From NCBI RefSeq assembly GCF_057098645.1, contig NZ_CM169472.1: DNA of 64,000 nt; one strand, written 5' to 3'. The notes under the pieces were generated by a model, which was not told the DNA's origin, did no database searches, and saw nothing but the letters and a program-made list of their open reading frames with translations. Position numbers and translations under genes: made by a program. This document shows positions 24,615 to 34,916 of this stretch, one piece after another. The number at the start of each line of letters is the position of its first letter. The stretch's first letter is position 1.

Positions 24615-25370
24615 TTAACGCGTTTTTTCGCTGCTTTCCACTACCGGGGGATTTTTCCTCAGTGACTCTCCCTGAAGGACCACTCGGTGTGAGTTATGTA
24701 CCAGTCTGTCCAGGATGGCATCTGCTGTTGTTGGGTTCTCCATCAGACCATGCCATTTATCTACCGGGAACTGGCTTACCACTATCGTGCTGCTTTGTCC
24801 GTAACGATCCTCTATGAGCTCCAGAAGGTCATTACACTGGGCGTTACTTAACTGTTCCAGCCCCAGATCGTCCAGGATTAGAACCTGTATTTTTTGCAAC
24901 TGTTTCAGATATTTCAGCCAGCTGCCATCAACACGTCCCTGAGCCAGTTGTTCCAGTAATCGCCCGGTTCTACAGTACCGGACGCTGTGTTTCTGTCGAC
25001 ATGCCTGTTCGCCCAGCGCATTGGCTATCCAGCTCTTGCCACATCCTGTCGGACCGGTTATCAGCAGGTTTTTCCTGTGGGTTATGTAGTGGCCGTTCAG
25101 CAGTTCTCTCATCTGTTCAGCCCGCAGACCTCTTGAGGCCGGATAGCGCAGCCCTTCCGGTGTTGCCTGGTATTTCAGGCCGGCATTTTTTCTCAACCGT
25201 GCCACACGGCTGTTTTCCCTGCTCAGAAGCTCGTCATCAACCAGCAGCGTCAGCCTTTCCTCGAACGACAGTTCGTCGTAGGTCTGAGGCGTTTCCCGCT
25301 GCCGTATCAGGCTCCCGGCCATCGCCGGGAGTTTCAGTTGGGTCAGTTTGTTTAACAGGTTATCACTCAT
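24615..25370 (-). CDS. istB: IS21-family helper ATPase IstB
   Basis: Walker A GPTGCGKS and typical IstB architecture; start taken at MSDNLLNKL. Confidence 0.85.
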   Translation of the reverse strand: MSDNLLNKLTQLKLPAMAGSLIRQRETPQTYDELSFEERLTLLVDDELLSRENSRVARLRKNAGLKYQATPEGLRYPASRGLRAEQMRELLNGHYITHRKNLLITGPTGCGKSWIANALGEQACRQKHSVRYCRTGRLLEQLAQGRVDGSWLKYLKQLQKIQVLILDDLGLEQLSNAQCNDLLELIEDRYGQSSTIVVSQFPVDKWHGLMENPTTADAILDRLVHNSHRVVLQGESLRKNPPVVESSEKTR

Positions 25371-25386
25371 ACTGTTGTTCCTTCTG

Positions 25387-26952
25387 TCAGTGGTAGTAGC
25401 CCGGACCACGCAGGTTTTCATGCTCTGAAGCATATGCCGGATGTTGTTCGCCCTGGCGGGATAATGGAAGCTCCAGGTTCTCCCGATGGTGACGCAGCAG
25501 ATTGTCGATAAAGCGTCTGTCAGGGGCGTTATAGTGCAGGGCAACGTAACAGGCCTTTTCCAGCCGTTCCGGGCCGTATTTTTTCTGAAGTGCCAGCAGC
25601 CCCAGAACTGCACGATAAGCCAGTTCCGGATGGGGTTTTGCCTTCAGCATGGATTCAACCACCCGGCCTGTGGACGGGCCCGTACGTTTTCCCTGCTCGA
25701 TCAGGCGTTCCGGTGTCCATGTCCCGTGCTGCCGGTGGCGCTCTGGCATGTGAAGCGGATTGGTTGTGTGTTTATATTCATGTGTGCTGCGCGGATGTTG
25801 CGCCACACACTGCCCCTTGTGCCAGAGCTGTACCACCGACTGCCCCGCCTTCAGTGACAGACGCTGACCGACCAGTTCGTGTGGAACGGAGTACCAGTGA
25901 CGGGCATATTCAACGTGGTAGTCAGGGCCAACCTTCACAGCTTTGTATTCCGTGTATTCATAAGGTGCCAGAGGCAGCGGAGAGAGTGCTGGCGCATCCA
26001 GTATGCGGAAGCGTTCTGCACGGGTTTGATTGCCGTACCCCTTCATTGGCCGGTTATTCATGTCTGTCAGTAACTCCCTAAGGCGCGCATTCAGCGCCCT
26101 GAGCGTGTGGAAGGTTTCATTACGGATGCGGGCAAGAAGCCATCGTTCAACGATGAGGACGCCGTTTTCTGCTTTTGGTTTATCTTTAGGTTTGCGTGGT
26201 CGGGCCGGGATGATAACCGTGCCATAGTGCTCAGCCAGTGCCTGATAACTGTCGTTGATGACAGGCTCATATCGATCGGCCTTTTTCACTGCGCTTCTGA
26301 GGTTATCGGGGATGAGCAGCTTCGGTACGCCGCCCAGGAAGGTCAGGCAACGGCTGTGGGCATTTAACCATGACATCATGTCCTGACCTTCGCACGCTTC
26401 AACGTAGGTATAGTTGGACGCCCCCATTACGGCCACGAAGATTGCCACGCGGCGTATCTCACCGGTGTCCGGATTAATAACAGGAACCGTAGGACCACAG
26501 AAGTCGATAAAAAGCTTTTCGCCGGCACGATGCTCCTGGCGCATGGAGAGACGTCGCGTTTTTTTCCACTCCCGGTAGCAACGGCAGAAGTGCGAGTATC
26601 CCATCGCTTTGTTACCCGCCTGTGCCTTGTATTCCATCCACAACAGTTGCCGCGTCACACCTGGTTTTCTCATTTCCGTATCGAAGTACAACATGTCAGG
26701 CATTACAAGCTCTGATGCAAAGGTGTCTTTGGGCGGAAAAATGAGTTTCTCCAGCGTGTCATGGGATATATCAGCAGGTAATGGCCATGACAGAGAAGAG
26801 GCTTTGAAGCGGGCAAGAACCTCAAAAACGGTTGAGGCGCTGATGTGTAACGTCAGTCCGATACAACGGTTAGTCAGCTTCTTGTCGAACTTGAGCTGAA
26901 GGATCTTAAAACAGGTTTCCATAGTGCTCCTGGATTTTCTCTTTCTGGACAT
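25387..26952 (-). CDS. istA: IS21-family transposase IstA
   Basis: N-terminal HTH then DDE integrase core; start ambiguous (26922, 26952 or 27033). Confidence 0.8.
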   Translation of the reverse strand: MSRKRKSRSTMETCFKILQLKFDKKLTNRCIGLTLHISASTVFEVLARFKASSLSWPLPADISHDTLEKLIFPPKDTFASELVMPDMLYFDTEMRKPGVTRQLLWMEYKAQAGNKAMGYSHFCRCYREWKKTRRLSMRQEHRAGEKLFIDFCGPTVPVINPDTGEIRRVAIFVAVMGASNYTYVEACEGQDMMSWLNAHSRCLTFLGGVPKLLIPDNLRSAVKKADRYEPVINDSYQALAEHYGTVIIPARPRKPKDKPKAENGVLIVERWLLARIRNETFHTLRALNARLRELLTDMNNRPMKGYGNQTRAERFRILDAPALSPLPLAPYEYTEYKAVKVGPDYHVEYARHWYSVPHELVGQRLSLKAGQSVVQLWHKGQCVAQHPRSTHEYKHTTNPLHMPERHRQHGTWTPERLIEQGKRTGPSTGRVVESMLKAKPHPELAYRAVLGLLALQKKYGPERLEKACYVALHYNAPDRRFIDNLLRHHRENLELPLSRQGEQHPAYASEHENLRGPGYYH

Positions 26953-27137
26953 TGACGTCTCCACTGGTTTAAACACGGCAATGGAGACTGTGGTGAAAAG
27001 AGTTAATTCCCGGAGTGACTGGCAGGATGCCAATCAATGATCGGAAGCATGCCAAATCGTGATCGATTGTGATGCCAAACTGTGATCGGAGATGGATGCC
27101 AAATCATGATCGATTCGAATGCCAAACTGCGATCGAT

Positions 27138-27434
27138 TCAGATGCCATTTTGCACGTTAACCATGGTTTTCAGCTTCTGGATGTTTGCCCGTGCCCTGGC
27201 GTTGCTGGTGGGCACGTTATGCGGCGCGGTCTGTACCAGAGAAAAATCACGCCGGAACTGATAAACAGGCATCACGCAATCATATTCGTAACCTTCACGG
27301 CGGTAAGTTACGCACCGTCCCGCCACGCCCTTAATCATTACCGTGCCGCCGTACTGGTCGCGGTAAATATCACCGCGCGTAAATTTAGGGTGAGTGTTGC
27401 CACTGGCAGTTAAGCCAGAATATTTAAGTTTCAT
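27138..27434 (-). CDS. Hypothetical protein (98 aa); last 6 codons replaced by IS21 end sequence
   Basis: Before the IS21 insertion this gene would end ...KLKTMVNGFRGKK with its TGA overlapping the rep ATG (24490-24492). Confidence 0.5.
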   Translation of the reverse strand: MKLKYSGLTASGNTHPKFTRGDIYRDQYGGTVMIKGVAGRCVTYRREGYEYDCVMPVYQFRRDFSLVQTAPHNVPTSNARARANIQKLKTMVNVQNGI

Positions 27435-27674: not shown

Positions 27675-27896
27675 TTAATCCCCGTCCGTCGTTTTTCTTA
27701 AAACAACTTCTGTCACGAAATCAGCATAGTTAGCGGCAATATCAAGAATATTTAGCCCTGTATCCCTGTGCTCATCAGTGCAAAGAAAGAAAAAAGCCAC
27801 CAGCATAATTTCAGATATTGACGAAAGCGCATCAGCCGCATCATCAGGAACGCCGGAAAATTCCTGTTTCAGGGAATTAAAACGATCATCACGCAT
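27675..27896 (-). CDS. Hypothetical protein (73 aa)
   Basis: First ORF of the three-gene set upstream of rep. Confidence 0.45.
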   Translation of the reverse strand: MRDDRFNSLKQEFSGVPDDAADALSSISEIMLVAFFFLCTDEHRDTGLNILDIAANYADFVTEVVLRKTTDGD

Positions 27897-27929
27897 AACC
27901 CCGTTACTTTATTCGTACCCCTTATAATG

Positions 27930-28129
27930 GGGTGTTAGCCAGCCAGACCCGGCATGATTACTGCCCCCAGTCGTCCATGATCCGGGGGGTGATGTCACCG
28001 GGTCTGGTGGGGCGCTGGTAACCGCTAATAGGGGTCAGGTCAGGCACTTTTGCCGGGACCGTCTGTAACGTGGATGCCGGTACCTGCTCCCCGTGGTTAT
28101 CTGGTTAACCCATATACAAGGGAGACAGA
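27930..28129 (+). ncRNA. Candidate IS110-type bridge (guide) RNA in the 5-prime non-coding end
   Basis: Structured GC-rich non-coding flank upstream of the recombinase, where IS110-group elements encode their bridge RNA; not verified by folding. Confidence 0.25.
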
Positions 28130-29326
28130 ATGACCGAATCCAGCGATTACGAATCCGTCCAGGTCTTTATCGGCGTTGATGTCGGTAAAGATACGCATCA
28201 CGCTGTAGCCATTAATCGTTCAGGTAAACGCCTGTTCGATAAAGCATTACCCAACGACGAAAACAAACTCAGGTCGCTAATATCTGACCTGAAACAACAT
28301 GGTCAGATACTGCTGGTTGTTGATCAGCCAGCTACCATCGGTGCGTTACCTGTCGCCGTTGCCCGCTCAGAAGGAGTCCTTGTCGGATACCTCCCTGGAC
28401 TGGCCATGCGCCGCATAGCCGACTTACACGCCGGTGAAGCTAAAACTGATGCTCGTGACGCTGCCATCATTGCCGAAGCTGCCCGTACCCTGCCTCACGC
28501 GCTACGCACGCTGAAACTGGCTGACGAGCAAATCGCCGAACTCTCCATGCTCTGCGGCTTCGATGATGATCTTGCCGCACAGACAACGCAGGCCAGCAAC
28601 CGTATCCGCGGCCTTCTGACCCAGATACATCCGGCACTGGAGCGCGTTCTCGGTCCGAGACTTGATCACCCGGCGGTACTCGATCTTCTCCAGCGATATC
28701 CCTCACCAGAAAAACTCGCTTCGCTGGGTGAGAAGAAGCTGGCAGCCCAGCTCTGCAAACTTGCGCCTCGTCTGGGTAAACGCCTTGCAGCAGACATAGC
28801 TCAGGCACTGGCCGAACAAACCGTCGTCGTTCCCGGCACGAATGCCGCTGCCGTAGTACTGCCACGTCTGGCACTCCAGCTCATCACGCTGCGTAAGCAA
28901 AGAGACGAGGTGGTGCTTGAGGTAGAACAGCGAGTTCTTGCTCACCCTCTTTACCCGGTCCTGACCAGTATGCCCGGAGTCGGTGTCAGGACCGCAGCCA
29001 GACTCCTCACCGAGGTCGCCTGCCGCGCCTTCGCCTCTGCCGCACATCTCGCTGCTTATGCTGGCCTTGCGCCGGTAACTCGGCGATCCGGCTCGTCAAT
29101 ACGCGGTGAGCATCCCTCGCGACGGGGTAATAAAGCTCTCAAACGGGCGTTGTTCCTGTCGGCCTTCGCCGCGCTCAGGGATCCGCTCTCCAGGGCTTAC
29201 TACACCCGCAAAATGAGTCAGGGAAAACGACACAATCAGGCGCTTATCGCCCTGGCGAGACGACGCTGCGACGTTCTGTTCGCCATGATGCGCGACGGGA
29301 CTTTTTATACCCCGCAGGCGTCATAA
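28130..29326 (+). CDS. IS110-family transposase/recombinase (398 aa)
   Basis: N-terminal IGVDVGKDTHHAVAIN (RuvC-like DEDD) motif and C-terminal serine-containing domain. Confidence 0.85.
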   Translation: MTESSDYESVQVFIGVDVGKDTHHAVAINRSGKRLFDKALPNDENKLRSLISDLKQHGQILLVVDQPATIGALPVAVARSEGVLVGYLPGLAMRRIADLHAGEAKTDARDAAIIAEAARTLPHALRTLKLADEQIAELSMLCGFDDDLAAQTTQASNRIRGLLTQIHPALERVLGPRLDHPAVLDLLQRYPSPEKLASLGEKKLAAQLCKLAPRLGKRLAADIAQALAEQTVVVPGTNAAAVVLPRLALQLITLRKQRDEVVLEVEQRVLAHPLYPVLTSMPGVGVRTAARLLTEVACRAFASAAHLAAYAGLAPVTRRSGSSIRGEHPSRRGNKALKRALFLSAFAALRDPLSRAYYTRKMSQGKRHNQALIALARRRCDVLFAMMRDGTFYTPQAS

Positions 29327-29339
29327 CATGCTTGACAAC

Positions 29340-29561
29340 TTAATAGGGGCACCCCCCATTTTCACAATCAGCAATAAGAATATTTTTAGCGTCATTCAGC
29401 GACCGCGTGGCGGTGTATCGGATACATTCCAGGGCGAACTGTGTCCGGTCTTTCTGTTCTTCTCCCTGCGCAAGCTCTGCAGTGCATTCAATATCGATAA
29501 GCGCGTGCATCAGCGTAGTGAGCGCGGCGGCTGCTGCGTCCGGTGTGGTTTTATTGCACAT
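29340..29561 (-). CDS. Hypothetical Cys-containing protein (73 aa, MCNKTTPDAAAAALTTLMHALIDIECTAEL...)
   Basis: AGGAGG Shine-Dalgarno 8 nt upstream; ATG overlaps the end of the preceding gene by 11 bp; stop is 14 nt from the IS110 transposase stop. Confidence 0.5.
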   Translation of the reverse strand: MCNKTTPDAAAAALTTLMHALIDIECTAELAQGEEQKDRTQFALECIRYTATRSLNDAKNILIADCENGGCPY

Positions 29562-29751
29562 GGCACACCTCCTGACGAATACGGGCGGCGAATACAGCAA
29601 CACAACCGGACGGGCAACGGCTACGCGCTTCGCGTTCCGTCCAGGCGGTTACGTGGATGATTTGAGATTCTCCGGCACTCAGTGCCAGAAAACGCCACAC
29701 AAAGGCCGTTTGTGTGTGTACAAGGTGTGGTATATGATTTACAGCAACCAT
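29551..29751 (-). CDS. Hypothetical Cys/His-rich protein (66 aa, MVAVNHIPHLVHTQTAFVWRF...CPSGC...CHVQ)
   Basis: AGGAG Shine-Dalgarno 5 nt upstream of ATG; first gene of the leftward small-gene operon. Confidence 0.55.
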   Translation of the reverse strand: MVAVNHIPHLVHTQTAFVWRFLALSAGESQIIHVTAWTEREARSRCPSGCVAVFAARIRQEVCHVQ

Positions 29752-31188: not shown

Positions 31189-32406
31189 TTATTTTCTTCT
31201 GGCTACTGGTAGCGTGGTTACGTTTTCATGTGTTCCCGCCAGTATCCCTAACCGCTCCATCCACATATCCAGCGCATTGCGTTTAGCATCCAGATAACGG
31301 GAATGATTATAAACTCGCTGCATTCCTGGCATCTGGTGGCCTGTAAGCTGCTCCACGACATGCGGATCAACGCCTAAATCGTTCAGCATGGTTGTAAAGG
31401 TGCGCCGGATGTCATGCAGTGACCAGTGAGGATGATTAAGCCTCCTGTGCGCTAATCTTCCATACTGCGATACGCTGGCCTCCTGTTTCACTTCCCCCAG
31501 CAATAAGCCCGTGTGCCTGTTCTGCTCCACCAGCTGCGTGACGAACGGCAGGATCGCTTCCGGTATGGGCCGGAATATTGCGACCTTCGTTTTGCTGTGC
31601 TCCTTCGGAACGGTCCATAGCATTTCCGTAAAATCCCACTCCCCGATCTCCGATAGCCTCAGTTCTACCGTCCTGGCTCCGAAGACAATCAGGAGGCGGA
31701 TTAACGCGACGTAGTAAGGGGAAAATATTTTTTTGTCCAGTGCCTGCAATAATTCGCCAAGTTCTTTGTTACTTAAGACACGTTCGCTTATATCCGGTTT
31801 TTTCCCAACGTCCGCCACGTTCAGATCGTCCAGAACGTTGCTGATTGCATAGCGCCGCCTACGGCAGAACTTAAGCGCCTGTTTGCACGCCTGTAGCACG
31901 AATCCGGCAGTAACAGGCGTTCGCTTTGCCACCTGGTCAAAACAGGCCAGCCAGTGCCGTAGCTCGCATTTATCCAGCGGCATAGCACCAATCTGCTGTA
32001 TTACGTGATTATTAAGTCGCCTTTTCAGGGCGATATAATCCACGCGCTTTTCCTTTACGTAATACTCAAGCCAGTAGGTGAGCGCATCGCCAACCGTTAC
32101 GGGCTTTAACGCTTCCTGTACGGTGTAATTCATCTCATGACGTGGATTTTTCCCCTCAGCCAGCCATGTGCGACACTGTGCGGCTTTTTCCCTAGCTGCT
32201 TTCAGGCTCAGATCAGGATAACTTCCCAGCTTAATGCGTTCGGGTCGTGTCTCCCTTCCCGTTCCGGCCCTGTATGTGAAATACCAGGTCAATTTCCCTG
32301 ATGTTAAATATTTCACGCTCAGGTTTCCGCCATCACTATAAAACGTGTTTTTCTCCGCTGGCTTACCATGAAGTTTCCTTAGCAAGGTATCGCTCAGTTT
32401 GTTCAT
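31189..32406 (-). CDS. int: Tyrosine integrase, P4-like (about 405 aa)
   Basis: Arm-binding N-terminal domain plus catalytic R..HxxR..Y signature (HDIRRTF...RYLD); start at ATG 32406 (GTG 32418 also possible). Confidence 0.9.
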   Translation of the reverse strand: MNKLSDTLLRKLHGKPAEKNTFYSDGGNLSVKYLTSGKLTWYFTYRAGTGRETRPERIKLGSYPDLSLKAAREKAAQCRTWLAEGKNPRHEMNYTVQEALKPVTVGDALTYWLEYYVKEKRVDYIALKRRLNNHVIQQIGAMPLDKCELRHWLACFDQVAKRTPVTAGFVLQACKQALKFCRRRRYAISNVLDDLNVADVGKKPDISERVLSNKELGELLQALDKKIFSPYYVALIRLLIVFGARTVELRLSEIGEWDFTEMLWTVPKEHSKTKVAIFRPIPEAILPFVTQLVEQNRHTGLLLGEVKQEASVSQYGRLAHRRLNHPHWSLHDIRRTFTTMLNDLGVDPHVVEQLTGHQMPGMQRVYNHSRYLDAKRNALDMWMERLGILAGTHENVTTLPVARRK

Positions 32407-32444
32407 TGCTCTGCTCACGTTTTACCCCCTCTTTACGAAAAAGT

Positions 32445-33524: not shown

Positions 33525-34916
<1,392 letters not shown>

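What the first reader, a model, noticed from the sequence alone, without database searches (positions are those of the whole stretch)
27897..29339. IS110-family element inside the island with a candidate bridge RNA in its 5-prime non-coding end
A 398-aa DEDD-type recombinase (28130-29326) is preceded by about 230 bp of structured non-coding sequence. IS110-group elements encode a bridge RNA there that pairs with target and donor DNA. The 3-prime side leaves only 13 nt before the stop of the neighbouring small gene, so the insertion also defines or alters that gene end.
Basis: partly seen in the sequence, partly recalled or inferred. Interest (0 to 1): 0.5.

Follow-up and report, generated by a model that had tools for sequence, protein, structure and literature searches.

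The report
ISEc20 insertion sequence with bridge RNA
This is an ordinary, intact copy of the known E. coli insertion sequence ISEc20, whose 5-prime non-coding end does encode an IS110-type bridge RNA that steers the element into runs of eight to ten C residues, one of which lay between two small genes of this island.

Summary
The 398-aa ORF (28130-29326) is a DEDD/serine IS110-family recombinase preceded by 227 nt of structured non-coding DNA. The element is ISEc20, one nucleotide different from copies in 2,383 of 5,426 complete E. coli genomes.

The element runs from 27903 to 29351, plus one shared C, between C runs of 4 and 6. Uninterrupted sites carry C8 or C9.

The bridge-RNA reading is supported. 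A covariance model built only from 63 distant relatives (68-82% protein identity) hits 27903-28102 at 191 bits. The 5-prime hairpin and two stem-loops with internal loops are kept by compensatory changes. The first loop carries CUGCCCCC and GGGGGG-UG, matching the C-tract target. The second carries UAAUAGGGGU and GUAACG, matching the element's right and left ends. These donor guides co-vary with the ends across relatives.

The right end holds TTGACA. It would lie 17 nt from TACTTT only in the excised circle.

The neighbouring small gene's stop codon lies inside the IS. The insertion therefore replaced its last three residues and separated it from the overlapping downstream gene.

ISEc20 and LE-encoded bridge RNAs of the IS110 group are already known, so interest is low. 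Nothing was tested experimentally. The crossover cannot be placed to the nucleotide inside a homopolymer.

The parts
27899..27902 (+). Left part of the split poly-C target tract (CCCC). The last C may be the shared crossover base.
   Evidence: The flanks of other copies vary upstream of this run. Empty sites have C8 or C9 here.
27903..29351 (+). ISEc20 (IS110 family, IS110 group), 1449 bp between the C runs. There are no terminal inverted repeats.
   Evidence: It differs by 1 nt (28914) from the copies fetched, which are annotated 'IS110-like element ISEc20 family transposase'. The ends were defined by alignment of copies.
27905..27910 (+). TACTTT, a candidate -10 hexamer of a promoter that exists only across the circle junction.
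   Evidence: With a one-C junction it lies 17 nt from TTGACA of the right end. Relatives have TACTAT or TACCTT here. No sigma-70-like site is found in the integrated copy. This is inference.
27917..27933 (+). 5-prime stem-loop of the bridge RNA (ACCCC-UUAUAAU-GGGGU).
   Evidence: Helix 1 has 4 of 5 pairs with changes on both sides.
27942..28008 (+). Target-binding stem-loop. The outer stem is 27942-27952 with 27998-28008. The 5-prime loop strand holds ACUGCCCCC (27960-27968, left target guide). The inner hairpin is 27970-27981. The 3-prime loop strand holds GGGGGG-UG (27984-27991, right target guide plus two further bases).
   Evidence: The outer stem has 6 of 11 pairs with compensatory changes and 97% of cells paired. 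The guides match the C-tract target. Variant elements L119, L106 and L086 have changed guides that match their own flanks.
28010..28091 (+). Donor-binding stem-loop. The outer stem is 28010-28015 with 28086-28091. The second stem is 28017-28024 with 28078-28084. The 5-prime loop strand holds UAAUAGGGGU (28026-28035, left donor guide). The inner hairpin is 28038-28060. The 3-prime loop strand holds GUAACGUGG (28065-28073, right donor guide plus two further bases).
   Evidence: UAAUAGGGGU has the same sense as the right end TAATAGGGGC (29341-29350). GUAACG is the reverse complement of CGTTAC at the left end (27902-27907). Across 57 loci the guide 8-mer and the right-end 8-mer are pairable at 451 of 456 positions, and 0 of 10000 shuffles reach that. 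The outer stem has 4 of 6 pairs with compensatory changes.
28130..29326 (+). Recombinase gene, 398 aa. It has a RuvC-like DEDD domain (D17, D65, D107, D110 by alignment) and a Tnp domain with the SGSS serine motif at 320-323.
   Evidence: The Tnp domain aligns to IS621 (8WT6) at E 1e-14.
29332..29337 (+). TTGACA in the right end, a candidate -35 hexamer of the junction promoter.
   Evidence: TTGAC is conserved in the right ends of all relatives where the end was found. Its function is inferred from Durrant et al. 2024.
29341..29351 (+). Right end TAATAGGGGCA, the left-donor half-site.
29352..29357 (+). Right part of the split poly-C target tract (CCCCCC).
29340..29561 (-). Island gene (73 aa, no Pfam family) whose C-terminus was changed by the insertion. 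Its last three codons (CPY) and its stop TAA (29340-29342) are IS sequence.
   Evidence: The intact allele ends ...DCENGGGYA*. The window copy ends ...DCENGGCPY*. Pfam finds nothing.
27675..27896 (-). Island gene (73 aa). In uninterrupted islands it overlaps the upstream gene by 8 nt (ATGCGTGA). Here it is separated from it by the IS.
   Evidence: Annotation of L007 and translations.

Best explanation
Identity (shown). Window 27903-29351 is an intact copy of ISEc20, an IS110-group insertion sequence.

The RNA (structure and complementarity shown, function inferred). Its 227-nt left end encodes a bridge RNA of about 175-190 nt, from about 27917 to about 28095. The RNA has a 5-prime hairpin followed by two stem-loops with internal loops.

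- The first loop (CUGCCCCC on the 5-prime side, GGGGGG on the 3-prime side) pairs with the two strands of a C8-C10 tract in the target.
- The second loop (UAAUAGGGGU and GUAACG) pairs with the element's own right and left ends once these are joined in an excised circle.
- The DEDD/serine recombinase then exchanges strands at the C that follows ...GGGGCA.

Expression (inferred). The right end supplies TTGACA and the left end supplies TACTTT. A sigma-70 promoter for the RNA therefore exists only in the circle.

This insertion (shown). The element landed in the G/C tract where two small genes of a P4-like island overlap. It rewrote the last three residues of the upstream gene and uncoupled the downstream one.

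Not shown: expression of the RNA, the circle, and activity of this copy.
For: Identity:
- The element has a 1-nt difference from the copies fetched. ISEc20 matches occur in 2,383 of 5,426 complete E. coli genomes.
- Durrant et al. 2024 supplementary files list ISEc20/ISSfl4 in the IS110 group, with the left end as the long non-coding end.

Structure:
- A model built from relatives only hits 27903-28102 at 190.9 bits over all 208 positions.
- 33 named pairs are 93.8% paired against at most 49.5% in slid controls. There are 213 double-sided changes against at most 43, and 0 of 500 shuffles reach the observed values.

Target:
- Empty sites have C8 or C9.
- The window has no other C or G run of 7 or more.
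- Nearly all of the 67 aligned left ends carry the same C5/G6 loop sequences and lie in C runs.
- The few with altered loops have matching altered flanks. L119 has ACGCUC against flank ACGCTC. L106 has UUCAUCCU against TTCATCCC. L086 has GGGGUG against right flank CACCCC.

Donor:
- The guide 8-mer and the right-end 8-mer are pairable at 451 of 456 positions in 57 loci, and 0 of 10000 shuffles reach that. Three variant types (GGGAC, GGAGC, GAGGC) are mirrored in the guide.

Promoter:
- No promoter-like site exists in the integrated copy.
- TTGACA-17 nt-TACTTT forms across a one-C junction.

Protein:
- The domains are present and the catalytic residues align to IS621.

The guide orientation rules are taken from PMC11208160 and PMC11208158.
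Against: - No RNA, circle or transposition was observed.
- Rfam 15 gives no match, so no curated model could be applied.
- In the single-sequence fold the two target guides pair with each other (C6:G6), which closes the loop.
- The bases that should read the core do not fit a core that is identical in donor and target. Both 3-prime loop strands carry G-U, which fits donor A-C, whereas targets have C-C.
- C counts at junctions vary: 1-5 on the left, and 4-7 on the right at ordinary junctions. Tandem copies have four Cs at the joint. The register is therefore not settled.
- The relatives are related by descent, so shuffle counts overstate independence.
Confidence: 0.88

Rival explanations
1. The structured left end is only a 5-prime leader that regulates transposase translation or stability. 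On this view C-tract specificity is read by the protein, and the complementarity to target and ends is coincidental.
For: The target guides are complementary to each other and close the loop in the minimum-energy fold. Most relatives share the same target and donor, so most guide positions never vary.
Against: Where guides do vary, the DNA varies with them. The donor guide against the right end shows this in 57 loci, with 0 of 10000 shuffles reaching the observed value. So do L119, L106 and L086. The four matches sit on the expected sides of two internal loops and in the expected strand sense, as in IS621. The helices, not the loops, carry the compensatory changes.
Confidence: 0.05
2. The element is an inactive relic. 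The RNA and ends are conserved only because the copy is recent, and it no longer moves.
For: No promoter-like site is found in the integrated copy. This exact insertion was not seen in any of 5,426 complete E. coli genomes, so its age is unknown. The copy carries one substitution, A262V.
Against: The ORF is intact and the catalytic residues are present. The left end is 100% identical to many copies. There are up to 10 places per genome, plus tandem arrays and many distinct sites, which argues that the family is active. The absence of a promoter in the integrated state is the expected condition for this family.
Confidence: 0.07
3. The guide RNA lies in the 3-prime end, as in the IS1111 group (seekRNA type), and the left-end structure is something else.
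Against: The right end is only 25 nt (29327-29351), and what follows is island sequence. The model search of the whole window found nothing else apart from a 17-bit match at 34259-34406 inside an ORF with both loops deleted. Durrant et al. list ISEc20/ISSfl4 as left-end type.
Confidence: 0.01

Closest known systems
ISEc20 / ISSfl4 (ISfinder names, as used by NCBI PGAP annotation)
   Same: The window copy differs from the E. coli copies fetched by one nucleotide over 1449 bp. Shigella plasmid copies annotated ISSfl4 are 99.3-99.4% identical.
   Different: Only the insertion site differs. This site in the P4-like island was not found occupied in any complete E. coli genome. One viral-contig locus (L047) shares the left junction.
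IS621 and its bridge RNA (Durrant et al. 2024, PMC11208160; Hiraizumi et al. 2024, PMC11208158)
   Same: Both have a DEDD plus serine recombinase, a long left end and a short right end. Both RNAs have a 5-prime hairpin and then target and donor stem-loops with internal loops. In both, the 5-prime loop strand has the sense of the top strand and the 3-prime loop strand is its reverse complement. In both, the -35 hexamer is in the right end and the -10 hexamer in the left end.
   Different: The recombinase is distant. Only the C-terminal domain aligns significantly (E 1e-14), and the protein is 398 aa against 326-328 aa. The target is a homopolymer, so the two target guides are complementary to each other. 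The positions facing the core fit donor A-C rather than a dinucleotide shared by donor and target. The left donor guide stops before the crossover.
IS110 of Streptomyces coelicolor and its clade (ISBma3, ISSam1 and others)
   Same: Durrant's clustering puts ISEc20 in the same protein cluster as IS110 itself. The 80 relatives fetched, from Burkholderiales and Actinobacteria, share the end sequences CCCC|GTTAC and ATAGGGGCA|C-run and the same loop sequences.
   Different: ISEc20 is the enterobacterial member. Its 5-prime hairpin and the second stem of its donor loop differ in sequence.

Membership tests
IS110 family, IS110 group | N-terminal RuvC-like DEDD domain | tested here: met
   PF01548 matches residues 14-168 at E 6e-49. 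D17, D65 (in the place of IS621 E60), D107 and D110 are present; they fall within a weak N-terminal alignment to IS621, 2.7 bits.
IS110 family, IS110 group | C-terminal Tnp domain with catalytic serine | tested here: met
   PF02371 matches at E 7e-22. SGSS at 320-323 aligns with the SGSS of IS621 that holds S241.
IS110 family, IS110 group | Long non-coding left end and short right end, with no terminal inverted repeats | tested here: met
   The left end is 227 nt and the right end 25 nt. The ends GTTACTTT... and ...TAGGGGCA are not inverted copies of each other, by direct reading.
ISEc20 | Near-identity to the reference element | tested here: met
   There is a 1-nt difference from copies annotated as ISEc20. 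The ISfinder reference itself was not available.
Bridge RNA (IS621 type) | 5-prime stem-loop followed by two stem-loops with internal loops, conserved by covariation | tested here: met
   The model built from relatives scores 190.9 bits.
Bridge RNA (IS621 type) | First loop: the 5-prime strand has the sense of the left target and the 3-prime strand is the reverse complement of the right target | tested here: met
   CUGCCCCC and GGGGGG match C8-C9 empty sites. Variant loops match variant flanks in L119, L106 and L086.
Bridge RNA (IS621 type) | Second loop: the 5-prime strand has the sense of the right end and the 3-prime strand is the reverse complement of the left end | tested here: met
   UAAUAGGGGU matches TAATAGGGGC, and GUAACG matches CGTTAC. 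Covariation holds in 57 loci.
Bridge RNA (IS621 type) | A core dinucleotide identical in donor and target and read by all four guides | tested here: inconclusive
   The homopolymer hides the register. Both 3-prime strands carry G-U facing the core, which fits donor A-C, while targets have C-C. The deletion joint GGGGCA-C-GTTAC implies that only one C is shared. The left donor guide does not pair with the core.
Bridge RNA (IS621 type) | Promoter reconstituted across the joined right and left ends; the RNA is expressed and bound by the recombinase | not testable with these tools
   Only hexamers and spacing can be seen: TTGACA-17-TACTTT in a one-C circle, and no site in the integrated copy.
Rfam family for bridge RNA | Match to a curated covariance model | tested here: not met
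   No match at gathering threshold over the window. Only chance-level matches (E 5-8) appear in 27700-29600. None of the 4227 Rfam 15 models matched, so no curated bridge-RNA model could be applied; this says nothing against the RNA.

The most novel reading that the evidence does not exclude
In the ISEc20/IS110 clade, donor and target do not share a dinucleotide core.

- The donor reads ...GGGGC-A-C-GTTAC and the target is a pure C tract. Only one C is common to both, and the position before it is mismatched (A against C).
- The RNA bases facing that position are set to the donor.
- Because the target is a homopolymer, the two target guides can pair with each other and close the loop.

The same RNA also drives natural deletions. 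It does so by recombining the right junction with chromosomal sequences that mimic a left junction (C-run followed by GTTAC) or with a second C tract.
Probability: 0.35. Interest if true: 0.45.

Novelty: already known. Interest (0 to 1): 0.2.

Why it matters
For annotating this window, four points matter.

- Bases 27903-29351 are a mobile element, not island cargo.
- The small gene at 29340-29561 has a chimeric C-terminus.
- The gene at 27675-27896 has lost its translational coupling.
- The island has been hit by at least two insertion sequences.

More generally, ISEc20 is one of the commonest IS110-group elements in E. coli, with matches in 44% of complete genomes. Its guide sequences and C-tract specificity can be read directly from the sequence, which lets its future insertion sites (C8-C10 runs) and adjacent deletions be predicted. 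None of this changes what is known about bridge recombinases.

Tried and rejected
1. Rfam search, at gathering threshold over the whole window and at permissive threshold over 27700-29600, found nothing relevant.
2. A simple 'CC core, 2-bp duplication' model was tried. It fits C8 empty sites, since 4+6 = 8+2. It does not fit the one-C joints RE-C-GTTAY seen in L023, L028, L047, L074 and L121, nor the L047/L130 deletion. I now favour a one-C overlap, under which the window's tract would have been C9.
3. A 'CA core' model with target CCCC-CA-CCCCCC was rejected, because no left junction carries CA before CGTTAC.
4. The terminase site looked like an exception. Its empty allele is ACCACCCCC and the occupied alleles have C4-5/C6. 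The likeliest reading is an unsampled in-frame C9 allele; this is not resolved.
5. Counting Cs to fix the register was abandoned. Tract lengths differ among assemblies of the same site (C8 against C9; L041 against L030; L129 lacks the A), which may reflect slippage or sequencing error.
6. The second model hit at 34259-34406 (-) was rejected. It scores 17 bits, lies inside a 462-aa ORF, and has both loops deleted.
7. Sub-terminal ATA/TAT repeats, as described for the IS110 group, were looked for by eye. ISEc20 has them, but Actinobacterial relatives do not, so they were not used.
8. A literature search for ISEc20 and ISSfl4 found only inventories and Shigella plasmid studies, with no description of this element's RNA or target.

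Full report
**What is there**

The ORF at 28130..29326 (+, 398 aa) exists as described. It carries the two domains of IS110-family recombinases: PF01548 DEDD_Tnp_IS110 (E 6e-49) and PF02371 (E 7e-22). It also passes NCBI's model 'IS110 family RNA-guided transposase', at 238.6 bits against a cutoff of 140.

Its C-terminal domain aligns to the solved IS621 recombinase (8WT6, E 1e-14), including the SGSS motif that holds the catalytic serine. The acidic residues of the RuvC-like domain are present: D17, D65, D107 and D110.

**Identity**

Megablast against 5,426 complete E. coli genomes finds the element in 2,383 of them, at up to 10 places per genome. The copies are annotated 'IS110-like element ISEc20 family transposase'. 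Over 1449 bp the window copy differs from the common copy by one base (28914 T for C, giving A262V). Shigella plasmid copies annotated ISSfl4 are 99.3-99.4% identical.

No complete E. coli genome has ISEc20 at this particular site. Zero records cover 80% or more of 27700-29700.

**Ends and target**

I compared six other copies in unrelated flanks and 30 viral-contig copies. All share GTTACTTTATTCG... (window 27903) through ...TTAATAGGGGCA (29351).

- Left of the element there is always a C run of 1-5, most often 4-5.
- Right of it there is a C run of 4-7, most often 6.
- In a minority, a single C followed by other sequence (GTTAC or GTTAT in three loci) lies on the right instead.

In the window the runs are 27899-27902 and 29352-29357.

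Uninterrupted versions of this island site read ...CACGCATAA-C8-ATTTTCAC (L007, L130) or the same with C9 (L008, L009). The target is therefore a homopolymeric C tract. The window holds no other run of seven or more C or G.

**The non-coding left end is a conserved structured RNA**

Rfam 15 has nothing that matches. I therefore collected relatives:

- 80 loci from Burkholderiales and Actinobacteria, at 68-94% protein identity;
- further plasmid and chromosomal relatives.

An alignment of 67 distinct left ends (A4) shows three elements: a 5-prime hairpin, then two long stem-loops with internal loops. RNAalifold finds the same stems.

I named a structure that leaves the loop strands unpaired and counted it on A4:

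| Measure | Named structure | Controls |
|---|---|---|
| Cells forming standard pairs | 93.8% | at most 49.5% (partners slid 1-3 columns) |
| Cells changed on both sides | 213 | at most 43 (slid controls) |
| Shuffles reaching the observed covariation score, paired cells, double-sided changes or pair types | – | 0 of 500 |

For the count of pairs with a double-sided change (18), 33 of 500 shuffles reach the observed value.

The outer stem of the first stem-loop has 6 of 11 pairs with compensatory changes. The outer stem of the second has 4 of 6.

I then built a covariance model from 63 relatives, leaving out the window and its three close relatives (A5, R1). It matches window 27903-28102 on the plus strand over its full length at 190.9 bits, E 1.4e-47. 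The only other match in 64 kb is a 17-bit alignment at 34259-34406 (-). It lies inside a 462-aa ORF and has both loops deleted, so I treat it as chance.

**The loops match the DNA in the way bridge RNAs do**

Durrant et al. define the rule. [quoted passage not shown] First loop (target):
- The 5-prime strand holds ACUGCCCCC (27960-27968).
- The 3-prime strand holds GGGGGG-UG (27984-27991).
- A C tract satisfies both.

Second loop (donor):
- The 5-prime strand holds UAAUAGGGGU (28026-28035). It reads like the right end TAATAGGGGC (29341-29350), with the final U able to wobble-pair.
- The 3-prime strand holds GUAACG (28065-28070), the reverse complement of CGTTAC at the left end.

**Covariation between guides and DNA**

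Almost the whole clade shares these loop sequences and also sits in C runs with the same ends. That means most guide positions never vary. Where they do vary, the DNA follows.

In 57 loci where the right end could be located, the donor-guide 8-mer and the right-end 8-mer are pairable at 451 of 456 positions. The shuffled mean is 437.7, and 0 of 10000 shuffles reach the observed value. The variants GGGAC (17 loci), GGAGC (L106) and GAGGC (L127) are each mirrored in the guide.

On the target side:
- L119 has ACGCUC where others have CCCCC, and its left flank is ACGCTC|GTTAC.
- L106 has UUCAUCCU against flank TTCATCCC.
- L086 has GGGGUG against right flank CACCCC.

These loci are related by descent, so the shuffle counts are not probabilities. 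The variant types are, however, separate events.

**Where the strands cross**

This could not be fixed to the nucleotide.

A CC core with a 2-bp duplication fits C8 empty sites (4+6 = 8+2). Five loci from different genera, however, have the right end joined to C-GTTAC or C-GTTAT followed by non-IS sequence: L023, L028, L047, L074 and L121.

For L047 the history can be read.
- Its left junction is at the island's C tract.
- Its right end is joined to a native sequence, CTCCCCC|GTTACGCC.
- In the uninterrupted island L130 that sequence lies about 495 bp downstream of the C tract.

That is a deletion between the right junction and a mimic of a left junction, which is the same geometry as excision. 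The joint is GGGGCA-C-GTTAC, with one C.

This implies that the circle junction also has one C, and that donor (..GGGGC-A-C-GTTAC) and target (C tract) share only that C. In line with this, the bases facing the crossover on both 3-prime loop strands are G-U. That pairs with the donor's A-C and only half-pairs with C-C. The left donor guide also stops at the C before the A.

On this reading the window's tract was C9. Two things argue for caution. Tandem copies have four Cs at the joint. Tract lengths at one and the same site also differ among assemblies. I therefore give the element as 27903-29351 plus one shared C.

**Expression**

The right end carries TTGACA (29332-29337), conserved as TTGAC in all relatives. 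The left end carries TACTTT (27905-27910), which is TACTAT in Burkholderiales. In a one-C circle the spacer is 17 nt.

The integrated copy has no sigma-70-like site in 27700-29500. This matches the family rule that excision rebuilds the promoter for the RNA. It is inference here.

A start about 7 nt downstream of TACTTT would place the 5-prime end at the first hairpin (27917).

**Effect on the host genes**

The island is a P4-like satellite remnant:
- integrase at 31189-32418;
- an Icd-like gene region (named from the annotation of homologous islands);
- a DUF4222 gene at 27138-27434;
- an IstA/IstB element at 24615-27033.

In uninterrupted islands two 73-aa genes on the minus strand overlap at the G tract. 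The upstream one ends ...DCENGGGYA* with C8, or 7 residues longer with C9. The downstream one starts at the ATG within ATGCGTGA.

In the window the upstream gene (29340-29561) reads through six Gs into the IS and ends ...DCENGGCPY*. Its stop TAA (29340-29342) is IS sequence. The downstream gene (27675-27896) keeps its ATG 2 nt from the C run but now lies 1.45 kb from its partner.

**Comparison with what is known, and verdict**

ISEc20 is a catalogued element. Durrant et al. include ISEc20/ISSfl4 in their IS110-group set, with the left end as the long end and in the same cluster as IS110 itself. They report predicted bridge RNAs in 85.7% of catalogued IS110-group elements, mostly in the left end.

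I found no paper that describes this element's RNA or its C-tract target. That is a detail within a known system.

The finding is correct and ordinary. Three features are mildly unusual: the homopolymer target, with target guides that are complementary to each other; the apparent one-base overlap in place of a shared dinucleotide core; and the natural guide-consistent deletions.

Noticed in passing
L047 (viral contig) against L130:432-960 (E. coli F2_407_2_2): The same island site is occupied by ISEc20, but its right end is joined to a native CTCCCCC|GTTACGCC sequence that lies about 495 bp downstream in the uninterrupted island. This is a deletion between the right junction and a mimic of a left junction. 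The joint is GGGGCA-C-GTTAC.
   Followed up: yes
L002 (E. coli SMN152SH1) against L017:282-450 (K-12 MG1655 autotransporter pseudogene): K-12 has two C8 tracts 132 bp apart as direct repeats. In SMN152SH1 ISEc20 sits between the left flank of the first tract and the right flank of the second, and the 124 bp between them are gone. This is an IS-associated deletion between two target tracts.
   Followed up: partly
L023, L028, L074, L121 (right junctions): In these loci the right end is followed by C-GTTAC or C-GTTAT and then unrelated sequence (in L028 what looks, from its translation, like the start of another transposase gene; not tested). The pattern recurs in E. coli prophages, Cupriavidus and Pseudarthrobacter. 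It suggests frequent recombination with left-junction mimics.
   Followed up: partly
L128:462-3363 and L129:462-3823 (E. coli SMN152SH1 plasmid, SMN197SH3 chromosome): These are head-to-tail tandem arrays of two and at least three ISEc20 copies, joined by GGGGCA-CCCC-GTTAC. One joint reads GGGGC-CCCC and lacks the A.
   Followed up: partly
window 27899-27902 / 29352-29357; L007:3388-3395; L008 and L009: The target tract is C8 in some islands and C9 in others. The length sets the C-terminus of the upstream 73-aa gene (...GGGYA* against ...GGGLCVMIVLIP*). NCBI annotates one C9 allele as a frameshifted pseudogene. The tract behaves like a slippage-prone site in its own right.
   Followed up: partly
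L016 (terminase gene, E. coli CFSAN004176) against L006 and L039: ISEc20 sits in a phage terminase gene whose closest empty allele reads ACCACCCCC, not a pure C run. Occupied alleles have C4-5 and C6. Either an unsampled C9 allele was the target, or the tract was altered at insertion.
   Followed up: partly
window 24615-27033 (-): An IS21-type element lies 100 bp left of the DUF4222 gene. It has IstA (548-aa ORF with rve and Mu-transposase C-terminal domains) and IstB (PF01695, E 2e-60). In uninterrupted islands a RepA-family helicase gene follows the DUF4222 gene at this position, so this looks like a second IS hit on the same island.
   Followed up: partly
L010:1801-2809 (E. coli 8479) and L014:1801-2155 (IncF plasmid near ompT): These are truncated relatives of ISEc20, with 88% and 75% identical left ends. 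L010 is cut by an IS3-family element. L014 is a short remnant found on many ColV-type plasmids. The L010 target loop has UUCCCCC and G5.
   Followed up: no
window 34259-34406 (-): This is a weak match (17.3 bits) to the bridge-RNA model. It lies inside a 462-aa ORF and both loops are deleted in the alignment. I judged it a chance match.
   Followed up: yes
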